64,000 nt of DNA from Eledone cirrhosa (Eukaryota), in NCBI GenBank assembly GCA_964016885.1, contig CAXHJY010001618.1, positions 1 through 64,000 of the forward strand. Reading direction: 5' to 3'. Position 1 is the stretch's first letter, and every line of letters begins with the position of its first letter. Under the pieces are notes generated by a model, which was given only the letters and a program-made list of their open reading frames with translations, ran no database searches and had not been told where the DNA came from. The position numbers were made by a program, and so were the translations under genes. Below are positions 7,864-8,465 of the stretch, one piece after another.

Positions 7864-7866
<3 letters not shown>

Positions 7867-8458
7867 CAAAATTAAAATTAAGGGTGTCATGTCCGAGACA
7901 TGCGCCATATCCACCGTAGAATAAGCTCAAAGATTCCAACGAATAGATCCGAGCATTTTATATCAACTAGAAATTGATTGACATATGATGGATATGGCGC
8001 ATGTCTCGGACATGACTCCCTTAATTTTAATTTTGGATATATATAAGGCCCCTTAATTGTAGAGCTAACTCAGTTGAAAAGACTGGGCTGCTATTTTTAG
8101 CTGTCGATAATCCTATTCACGCCACTGGGATGACGCTGGTACGATGTGTGTAGTTTTTAAAATGTAACACGTGCGACGGGTCATTCGCAGATTTGCATTT
8201 GATGTGTAAACACAGATAGTTAAACGTTCTCCCTTGCTGAAGATACGATATTTGACTACTGTGAGTTTACGGATTAATGGTGAAATATATTTATTTAATG
8301 AAATATGTACAAGGAAGATTAATCACTTTAAAGTTCTAGTTAAACTTTAAATAGTTACCTACCTAGCTGTGTGTGCTTACACACTTTACAAATTATCCCC
8401 TGTGATTGTTTCATGTGTTTATTTTATATATATATATATATGTCAATCAATTTCTAGT

Positions 8459-8465
<7 letters not shown>
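7864..8465 (+). mobile_element. Non-coding HHR-bearing element C (reconstructed circular unit of about 520 nt) with a 5' inverted segment
   Basis: 7866-7913 is inverted against 7989-8036, and 7959-7986 against 8438-8465. Flanked by (TA)n. Confidence 0.7.
8228..8318 (+). ncRNA. Minimal type-I hammerhead ribozyme (element C)
   Basis: Stem I tctcccttg/caaggaaga (8 of 9 pairs), CTGAAGA 8237-8243, GAAA-tat-GTA 8300-8309. Stem II is long and poorly defined. Confidence 0.65.

What the first reader, a model, noticed from the sequence alone, without database searches (positions are those of the whole stretch)
7864..8465. Retrozyme candidate C: the inverted flank closes the unit into a ~520-nt circle
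Seen: the plus segment runs tggatatggcgc (7989) through the HHR to gtcaatcaatttctagttgatata (8465). Read on the minus strand, 7986-7866 starts with that same end sequence, crosses 45 unique nt, then enters tggatatggcgc. The end therefore joins the beginning. Inference: the template was circular or tandem, with one HHR per unit and no ORF. It is unrelated in sequence to the adjacent element A.
Basis: partly seen in the sequence, partly recalled or inferred. Interest (0 to 1): 0.7.

Follow-up and report, generated by a model that had tools for sequence, protein, structure and literature searches.

The report
Hammerhead retrozyme-like element, inverted insertion
A roughly 520-base non-coding repeat carrying a self-cutting hammerhead RNA motif has been pasted into a TA microsatellite as two head-to-head pieces, the pattern that Penelope-like retrotransposons leave; it is a new family of a known kind of animal mobile repeat, and whether its RNA forms a circle is untested.

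Summary
The minus arm 7986-7866 is 28 nt identical to 8438-8465, 45 unique nt, and 48 nt matching 7989-8036 (46/48), closing a 522-nt non-coding unit with one type I hammerhead (beyond shuffles). Public runs show a many-copy family in which the same end-to-start link recurs, and five of six near-fixed differences in the ribozyme region restore hammerhead base pairs. Best reading: a non-autonomous Penelope-like/retrozyme-type element, copied by two reverse transcriptions primed on opposite strands of a (TA)n target and joined head to head. 'Circle' is not shown: an uncleaved tandem transcript of 1.1 units gives the same DNA, and is the main template of the one Penelope element studied in vitro. 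Head-to-head hammerhead elements are common in this window. Extras worth a test: a possible ribozyme-blocking helix (not significant in a fair control) and one high-depth contig with a swapped G3-C8 core. New member of a known kind; interest 0.35.

The parts
7841..7866 (.). (TA)n run between the right end of element A and the left end of element C; left target flank
   Evidence: sequence
7866..7913 (-). 3' part of the short inverted arm: copy of 7989-8036 (46 of 48 identical); its end is the inferred priming point of one cDNA, 249 nt downstream of the cleavage site in unit coordinates
7914..7958 (-). 45-nt segment that closes the unit (follows 8465, precedes 7989); among the most deeply covered parts of the family in the runs laid
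   Evidence: tables 2 and 8
7959..7986 (-). 5' part of the short inverted arm: 28 nt identical to 8438-8465
7987..7988 (.). head-to-head (5'-to-5') junction of the two arms; no more than 2 letters between them
7989..8465 (+). long arm, 477 nt, 34% G+C, non-coding, runs unbroken across the hammerhead cleavage site; ends 156 nt downstream of it
8223..8320 (+). type I hammerhead: stem Ib 8223-8228/8315-8320, 3-nt bulge, stem Ia 8232-8236/8310-8314, core 8237-8243, U.U then stem II 8245-8247/8278-8280 with a 30-nt loop, GAAA 8282-8285, stem III 8285-8293/8300-8308, predicted cut after 8309; four pairs are broken and one is a wobble in this copy but Watson-Crick in most other copies
   Evidence: (table 3)
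8205..8271 (+). alternative helix pairing the sequence upstream of stem I with loop 2; predicted to out-compete the hammerhead fold; significance weak in a fair control
8425..8440 (+). internal (TA)8 tract of the unit, shorter in at least one other copy
   Evidence: tables 5c, 7
8466..8515 (.). (TA)n right target flank

Best explanation
A solo copy (1.15 units, one ribozyme) of a many-copy, non-coding, ~520-540-nt head-to-tail family with a type I hammerhead per unit: a non-autonomous Penelope-like (PLE) element of the non-LTR retrozyme kind. SHOWN: unit closure, hammerhead fold kept by the family, many diverged copies, (TA)n flanks, two arms joined 5'-to-5' with both 3' ends facing the target. 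INFERRED: a borrowed PLE reverse transcriptase-endonuclease cut both strands of a (TA)n tract and primed two cDNAs inside the RNA, 156 and 249 nt downstream of the ribozyme site; they stopped after 477 and 121 nt and were joined end to end. The long cDNA crossed the cleavage site, so its template was intact there: either an uncut tandem transcript of at least ~572 nt (my odds about 0.6) or a ligated 522-nt circle (about 0.4). This copy's own ribozyme is probably weakened, and alone it cannot release a monomer.
For: Closure and hammerhead beyond shuffles. 2975, 57, 4905 and 26 records laid from four runs of three studies and two organism labels, mostly 82-99% alike. Closure in other copies: X4 records 9-11 and X5 record 18 span the 45 nt with both neighbours; joints 7986->8393 (X4, side 58) and 7986->8383 (X1, side 36); 20 X1 contigs continue behind 7986 with the (TA)n tract instead of the window's junction; at 8046, 75 X1 contigs carry another letter, one with 48 letters on its shorter side. 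Five of the six letters that are in the majority in both X1 and X9 within 8222-8320 turn a mismatch or wobble into a Watson-Crick pair of stems Ib, II, III. Four same-strand skips from the short-arm region into the long-arm region with other breakpoints fit further head-to-head copies (table 5). Element A and three more hammerhead elements in the window have the same inverted anatomy. PLE literature: inverted 5'-truncated copy, tail on one end, (TA)n targets (PMC8557442); both strands cut and extended, two internal start sites, unprocessed RNA the main template (PMC11167929); retrozymes related to PLE pLTRs (bioRxiv 10.64898/2026.07.22.740005).
Against: No autonomous PLE found in the window (0 GIY-YIG hits in 24 of 61 long and 110 of 145 shorter frames scanned; the RTs found are APE-type LINEs or a weak fragment) and no genome to search. 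No listed record shows two hammerheads in tandem (24 of 3139 pieces listed). The 93-nt offset between the two ends is longer than the 30-40-nt tail described for PLEs, and both ends lie in TA-rich microhomology whereas the anole PLE starts at non-homologous sites. The head-to-head joints have short sides (22-24 letters) at a likeness setting of 82, which the tool flags as weak. A target-site duplication cannot be read in (TA)n. Rfam gives no hammerhead hit. A diverged subfamily changes 8223-8224, which would break two stem Ib pairs unless partners change too (100 rows of differences not shown).
Confidence: 0.75

Rival explanations
1. Two RTs primed on opposite target strands copied the same circle, each stopping shortly after passing the other's start (48 and 28 nt of overlap), so the two arms together cover the circle once.
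For: The two arms cover exactly one unit plus 48 + 28 nt; the long arm crosses the cut site; circles are the main RNA form of coral, mussel and axolotl retrozymes (PMC7229834); a predicted blocking helix would protect a circle.
Against: DNA cannot separate this from an uncut multimer; element A (long arm about 1.6 units) and the other joints of this family show no such symmetry; unprocessed linear RNA is the main template of the anole PLE; no insertion or deletion at 8309/8310 among the 12 gap rows shown of 15; blocking helix matched by 29 of 200 shuffles in the fair control.
Confidence: 0.3
2. The closure is a one-off: 7989-8046 is a separate short truncated copy joined by a template jump to the pLTR of a longer autonomous PLE, so that no 522-nt unit exists.
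For: The first 48 nt of the long arm end where the short arm ends (8036); partial tandems are typical of PLE insertions; many listed pieces begin at 8026.
Against: Diverged contigs in three runs align from 8026-8030 through to 8112-8306, and one X1 contig has 48 aligned letters on its shorter side of 8046; no coding frame in the arm.
Confidence: 0.08
3. DNA-level rearrangement: a piece of a tandem satellite array was copied with a fold-back (template switch during repair or replication) into a microsatellite, with no RNA step.
For: (TA)n tracts break easily and the unit has TA patches at both ends (recalled; sequence); deep, diverged contigs (depth 63.6 and 21.9 in X4) could be homogenised arrays.
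Against: At least five unrelated hammerhead families in 64 kb share the head-to-head form with 3' ends outward; coverage of the family is highest just downstream of the ribozyme, as expected from priming there with 5' truncation (table 2; depth is noisy).
Confidence: 0.08
4. Mobilised by a LINE (APE-RT) with L1-type twin priming rather than by a PLE.
For: Two decayed APE-RT LINEs lie in the window; twin priming gives inverted truncated inserts (PMC2837659, start of abstract only).
Against: No poly(A) or LINE-like 3' tail; both ends are internal to a closed unit; the type I hammerhead with an extra U after the core and opposite-strand pairs 100-700 bp apart are PLE features (PMC4209133).
Confidence: 0.07

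Closest known systems
Non-LTR retrozymes of animals (Cervera and de la Pena 2020, PMC7229834; Li, Clavereau and Pollet 2026, bioRxiv 10.64898/2026.07.22.740005)
   Same: Non-coding, low-GC head-to-tail unit with one type I hammerhead; size inside the 51-972 bp range of Li et al.; U.U at the base of stem II as in axolotl HHR_Amex2; dispersed solo copies.
   Different: Longer than the 170-400 nt circles tested in 2020; stem III of 8-9 bp instead of 1-2 bp; 30-nt loop 2; ribozyme predicted blocked, whereas most metazoan retrozymes are predicted free; present here as a two-armed inverted insert with one ribozyme, not a tandem array; cleavage and circles untested.
EN+ Penelope-like element insertions (Craig et al. 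2021, PMC8557442; Cervera and de la Pena 2014, PMC4209133; Frangieh et al. 2024, PMC11167929)
   Same: Inverted 5'-truncated copy next to the 5' end, unequal outer ends, (TA)n target, type I hammerhead upstream of the copy ends, intact cleavage site in the insert.
   Different: No RT/GIY-YIG frame; unit only ~520 nt; offset between ends 93 nt rather than 30-40; ends in TA microhomology; autonomous partner not identified.
L1 5' inversions by twin priming (name and model recalled; PMC2837659 seen as a search listing with the start of its abstract)
   Same: Two primers on opposite target strands, arms joined 5'-to-5'.
   Different: No poly(A) end, no readable target-site duplication, template closed on itself, ribozyme present.

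Membership tests
Non-LTR retrozyme | Type I hammerhead in the unit | tested here: met
   Motif beyond 5000 shuffles; 5 of 6 majority letters restore pairs. No Rfam hit.
Non-LTR retrozyme | Head-to-tail repeating unit of about 50-1000 nt | tested here: met
   522-nt closure in the window; each link seen in other copies.
Non-LTR retrozyme, 'active' in the sense of Li et al. 2026 | At least two consecutive units each with a hammerhead | tested here: not met
   This locus has 1.15 units and one hammerhead; it is a solo copy and is not filed as an active retrozyme.
Non-LTR retrozyme | Tandem arrays somewhere in the family | tested here: inconclusive
   Two X1 joints of equal depth (7986->8244 and 7955->8026, 12.6, side 32) fit one contig running body-end-body, but no listed record shows two hammerheads; no genome held.
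Non-LTR retrozyme | Non-coding, G+C under 50%, no LTR pair | tested here: met
   Longest ATG frame 23 aa; 34% G+C; no direct terminal repeats; PBS/PPT not searched separately.
Non-LTR retrozyme | Highly self-paired RNA | tested here: inconclusive
   Linear 7989-8465: z = -2.24, 2 of 100 shuffles fold as well; the closed form was not folded.
Non-LTR retrozyme | Self-cleavage and expression as linear and circular RNA | not testable with these tools
   Needs bench work or RNA reads; no RNA holder listed.
Penelope-like element insertion | Inverted 5'-truncated copy adjacent to the 5' end | tested here: met
   further joints with other breakpoints.
Penelope-like element insertion | Microsatellite / AT-rich target | tested here: met
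   (TA)n on both sides.
Penelope-like element insertion | 30-40-nt tail on one end | tested here: inconclusive
   The short arm ends 93 nt further downstream than the long arm; one X4 contig ends at each of the two points (loose ends at 7960 and 8042), too few to define start sites.
Autonomous Penelope-like element | RT plus GIY-YIG open reading frame | tested here: not met
   No frame in the unit; none among the window frames scanned.

The most novel reading that the evidence does not exclude
A family of ~520-nt animal RNA circles whose hammerhead is switched off by its own upstream sequence (as in plant retrozymes and viroids, unlike most animal retrozymes), which a Penelope reverse transcriptase copies from both target strands at once so that each two-armed insert is a footprint of one circle; one subfamily uses a natural G3-C8 swap in the catalytic core, known to me from the papers read only as an engineered rescue mutant. 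This would give direct genomic evidence of how retrozyme circles integrate, and a compact substrate for testing it.
Probability: 0.2. Interest if true: 0.6.

Novelty: new member of a known kind. Interest (0 to 1): 0.35.

Why it matters
How non-coding animal retrozymes get back into the genome is still stated as open in the 2026 preprint read. A retrozyme-type unit carrying the two-armed, (TA)n-targeted footprint of Penelope insertions ties the two together by mechanism rather than by co-occurrence, and a genome with several such families offers many independent insertions in which priming points and template form (circle or uncut multimer) can be counted. The long stem III, the possible blocking helix and the G3-C8 contig are cheap to test in vitro. 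As a single locus it is ordinary transposon debris.

Tried and rejected
Whole genome: none held. RNA runs: no RNA holder listed, which says nothing on expression. Exact-pattern scans found 0 matches in metagenome contigs and viral contigs. Rfam: no hammerhead family; the best local hit, SNORD64 at 23.6 bits against a cut-off of 40, is rejected as chance. No tRNA in the window. Earlier findings: nothing by sequence, place or the long word list. Minimal hammerhead using the GAAA at 8300: rejected, because it leaves no stem II pair while GAAA 8282 gives stems II and III that other copies complete. The pile-ups of read ends in X9 (7876, 7899, 8055, 8394) are taken as restriction sites of the RAD library, not biology. 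Joints 7897->8004 and 7902->8004 only switch between the window's two copies of the same 48 nt and were not counted as inversions. The blocking helix looked strong when its window was chosen by eye (z = -3.61) but 29 of 200 shuffled units have an equally stable best window, so it is kept as a lead only. Depth was not converted to a copy number. Target-site duplication: unreadable. Literature: a search for 'Penelope-like' + 'inverted' + 'twin priming' gave 2 unrelated papers; searches for a natural G3-C8 core showed none in their listings, but these cover open-access text only.

Full report
Observation. The window is repeat-rich eukaryotic DNA (microsatellites, two decayed APE-RT LINEs, a Helitron fragment); an animal host is my inference. 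The minus strand of 7866-7986 reads as 28 nt identical to 8438-8465, then 45 nt found nowhere else in the window, then 48 nt matching 7989-8036 at 46 places. The plus arm 7989-8465 (477 nt) and the 45 nt thus close into a 522-nt unit. The longest exact inverted match is 28 nt against at most 18 in 1000 shuffles. The arms meet 5'-to-5' at 7987-7988 and both outer ends run into (TA)n. The unit is 34% G+C, has no ATG frame over 23 aa, and is no more like element A than shuffles are (122 of 200 score as well).

The ribozyme. A type I hammerhead pattern lies at 8237-8309: CUGAAGA, GAAA at 8282-8285, cut after GUA 8309, stem I 5 bp and stem III 8 bp; none of 5000 shuffles reaches 13 pairs and 14 give any motif (hammerhead numbering recalled). 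Rfam does not score it, and folded alone the stretch is unremarkable (z = -0.41). The runs settle the matter. Of 40 difference rows shown (100 not shown), 14 fall in 8222-8320, and six are the majority letter in both X1 and X9. Five of these six change a mismatch or wobble of the window copy into a Watson-Crick pair: 8225 and 8226 (stem Ib), 8245 (stem II), 8293 and 8307 (stem III); the sixth, 8249, is in loop 2. The family ribozyme therefore has 5 + 6 bp of stem I around a 3-nt bulge, a U.U pair and 3 bp at the base of stem II, a 30-nt loop 2 and a 9-bp stem III; this copy has decayed. Against: a diverged subfamily changes 8223-8224, and partner changes may hide among the rows not shown.

The family and the junction. 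One search listed 11 runs, 8 holding part of the stretch, none on record as RNA; I laid 4 at likeness 82. Records laid: 2975 (X1), 57 (X4), 4905 reads (X9, another study), 26 (X5, another organism label), most under 99% alike, so they come mainly from other copies; X1 may or may not be the window's source. Each link of the closed unit recurs. X4 records 9, 10, 11 and X5 record 18 span the 45 nt with both neighbours and carry 6-10 other letters each. Joints 7986->8393 (X4, depth 18.9, side 58) and 7986->8383 (X1, side 36) change strand exactly as a copy running from the body through the end into the 45 nt must, and 20 X1 contigs continue behind 7986 with the (TA)n tract, not the window's junction. 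At 8046, 75 X1 contigs carry another letter, one with 48 aligned letters on its shorter side, which bridges start segment and body. Two X1 joints of equal depth (12.6) fit one contig running body-end-body, but the record is not listed. Other copies have about 17 more letters before 8327 and, in one case, 34 instead of 51 letters around the TA tract, so the family unit is about 520-540 nt. No listed piece spans the whole stretch or two ribozymes (24 pieces listed, 3115 not).

The inversion is a family and genome habit. Of 15 joints shown (20 not), 8 are same-strand skips; four go from the short-arm region to 8272, 8327, 8352 and 8364, and two more to 8026-8030 with unknown letters between. These fit head-to-head inserts with other breakpoints, though their short sides are only 20-28 letters and the tool warns about such joints. 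In X4 the depth is about 200-660 over 8326-8405 and 280-380 over 7906-7985 but 82-105 over 8046-8265, as expected if most copies are primed 150-250 nt downstream of the ribozyme and truncated at their 5' side; depth is a summed, noisy measure. Within the window, element A (527-nt unit, long arm 6998-7846, inverted arm 7000-6707), the element at 11116-11724 and the palindromes at 27201-27538 and 53071-53216 all carry hammerhead patterns in inverted arrangements.

Mechanism. Shown: anatomy, closure, family, conserved fold. Inferred: two cDNAs primed on opposite strands of a cut (TA)n tract at +156 and +249 nt from the cleavage site, truncated and end-joined. The anole Penelope protein cuts and extends both strands, starts at two internal sites downstream of the hammerhead, and mainly uses unprocessed RNA (PMC11167929, parts 1-2 of 4 read); inverted truncated copies, one-sided tails and (TA)n targets are described for PLEs (PMC8557442, passages); opposite-strand hammerhead pairs 100-700 bp apart are noted in PMC4209133 (passages). 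Because the long arm crosses the cut site, a monomer cut at both ends cannot be its template without a jump; an uncut tandem of about 572 nt or a ligated circle can. DNA does not choose between them. That the two arms cover the unit once, with 48 and 28 nt overlaps, is suggestive of one circle but is not repeated in A or the other joints. Differences from the anole element: 93-nt offset, ends in TA microhomology. No partner PLE was found in the 24 of 61 long frames and 110 of 145 shorter frames scanned.

Two leads. (1) In the 477-nt fold the hammerhead stems have pair probabilities of 0.011 or less, while a helix between 8206-8227 and 8245-8270 has 0.9 or more at 16 of 20 pairs (-24.4 against -12.1 kcal/mol for the forced hammerhead over 8200-8326). 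The majority letters let 8222-8228 pair either in stem Ib or in this helix. Cervera and de la Pena report that most metazoan retrozymes are predicted unblocked (PMC7229834, parts 2-4 of 6 read). But 29 of 200 shuffled units have as stable a best window, and only one of the majority letters supports the helix independently. (2) One X4 contig (record 12, depth 63.6) differs at 8237, 8241 and 8242 only within the core rows shown, that is G3, N7 and C8; the same letters occur in 4 and 2 X1 contigs and 3 X9 reads each. C3G/G8C is an engineered partial rescue; the passages read describe only U3-A8 as natural (PMC3088659; PMC4209133) and two searches listed nothing further. It rests on summary tables, not on the contig's sequence.

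Comparison and verdict. It works like a non-autonomous PLE and resembles the non-LTR retrozymes, which the 2026 preprint derives from PLE pLTRs (parts 1-3 of 5 read; its supplements, which list family consensus data and might hold relatives, were not seen). This locus is a solo copy and fails the two-ribozyme criterion for an active retrozyme; cleavage and circles are untested. Observation confirmed, interpretation partly supported, new member of a known kind, interest 0.35.

Noticed in passing
window 8237-8243, X4 record 12: A high-depth diverged contig carries G at core position 3 and C at position 8 (plus a neutral position-7 change), the compensatory swap of the hammerhead 3-8 pair; also a C-G to U-A change in stem I. 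Low share in X1 and X9.
   Followed up: partly
window 8225-8227 and 8245-8249: This copy's own departures from the family (8225, 8226, 8245) break hammerhead pairs yet form three new pairs with each other in the alternative helix (probability about 0.6); chance, hairpin-templated mutation or a subfamily trait.
   Followed up: partly
window 6707-7846 (element A): Unrelated 527-nt hammerhead unit with the same two-armed anatomy, 1.6 units on the long arm, a 3-nt microhomology at the inversion, ends at +62 and +184 nt from the cut site; its cut site is predicted paired with the unit's own 6998-7013 segment. It shares one (TA)n run with element C.
   Followed up: partly
window 11116-11724 and 59651-60282: Third hammerhead family (patterns at 11241 and 59902, minus strand), inverted at 11.1-11.7 kb and partly tandem at 59.7-60.3 kb with a period of about 430 nt.
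   Followed up: partly
window 27201-27538 and 53071-53216: Near-perfect palindromes with a hammerhead pattern in the arms (27430, 53151), arm ends 57 and 27 nt after the cut site: very short head-to-head inserts of two more families.
   Followed up: partly
window 26574-26738 and 26936-27100: 165-nt inverted repeat, 96% alike, around a 197-nt spacer, ending in (TA)n; no hammerhead found by the scan.
   Followed up: no
window 53312-54122 and 28579-28986: Repeat family with a 510-nt period, copies ending in (TATG)n or (TA)n tracts, no hammerhead core found; possibly another Penelope-type non-autonomous element or a SINE.
   Followed up: partly
window 9583-9679: Isolated G+C-rich 97-nt hairpin with 34-bp arms directly after a (TA)n run; matches miRNA models only far below their cut-offs.
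   Followed up: no
window 21557-26105 and 30013-35469: Two decayed, 71-77% alike LINE copies with APE, RT and zf-RVT domains; Helitron-like fragment at 15347-16786; Brinker-type DNA-binding frame at 49526-50017.
   Followed up: no
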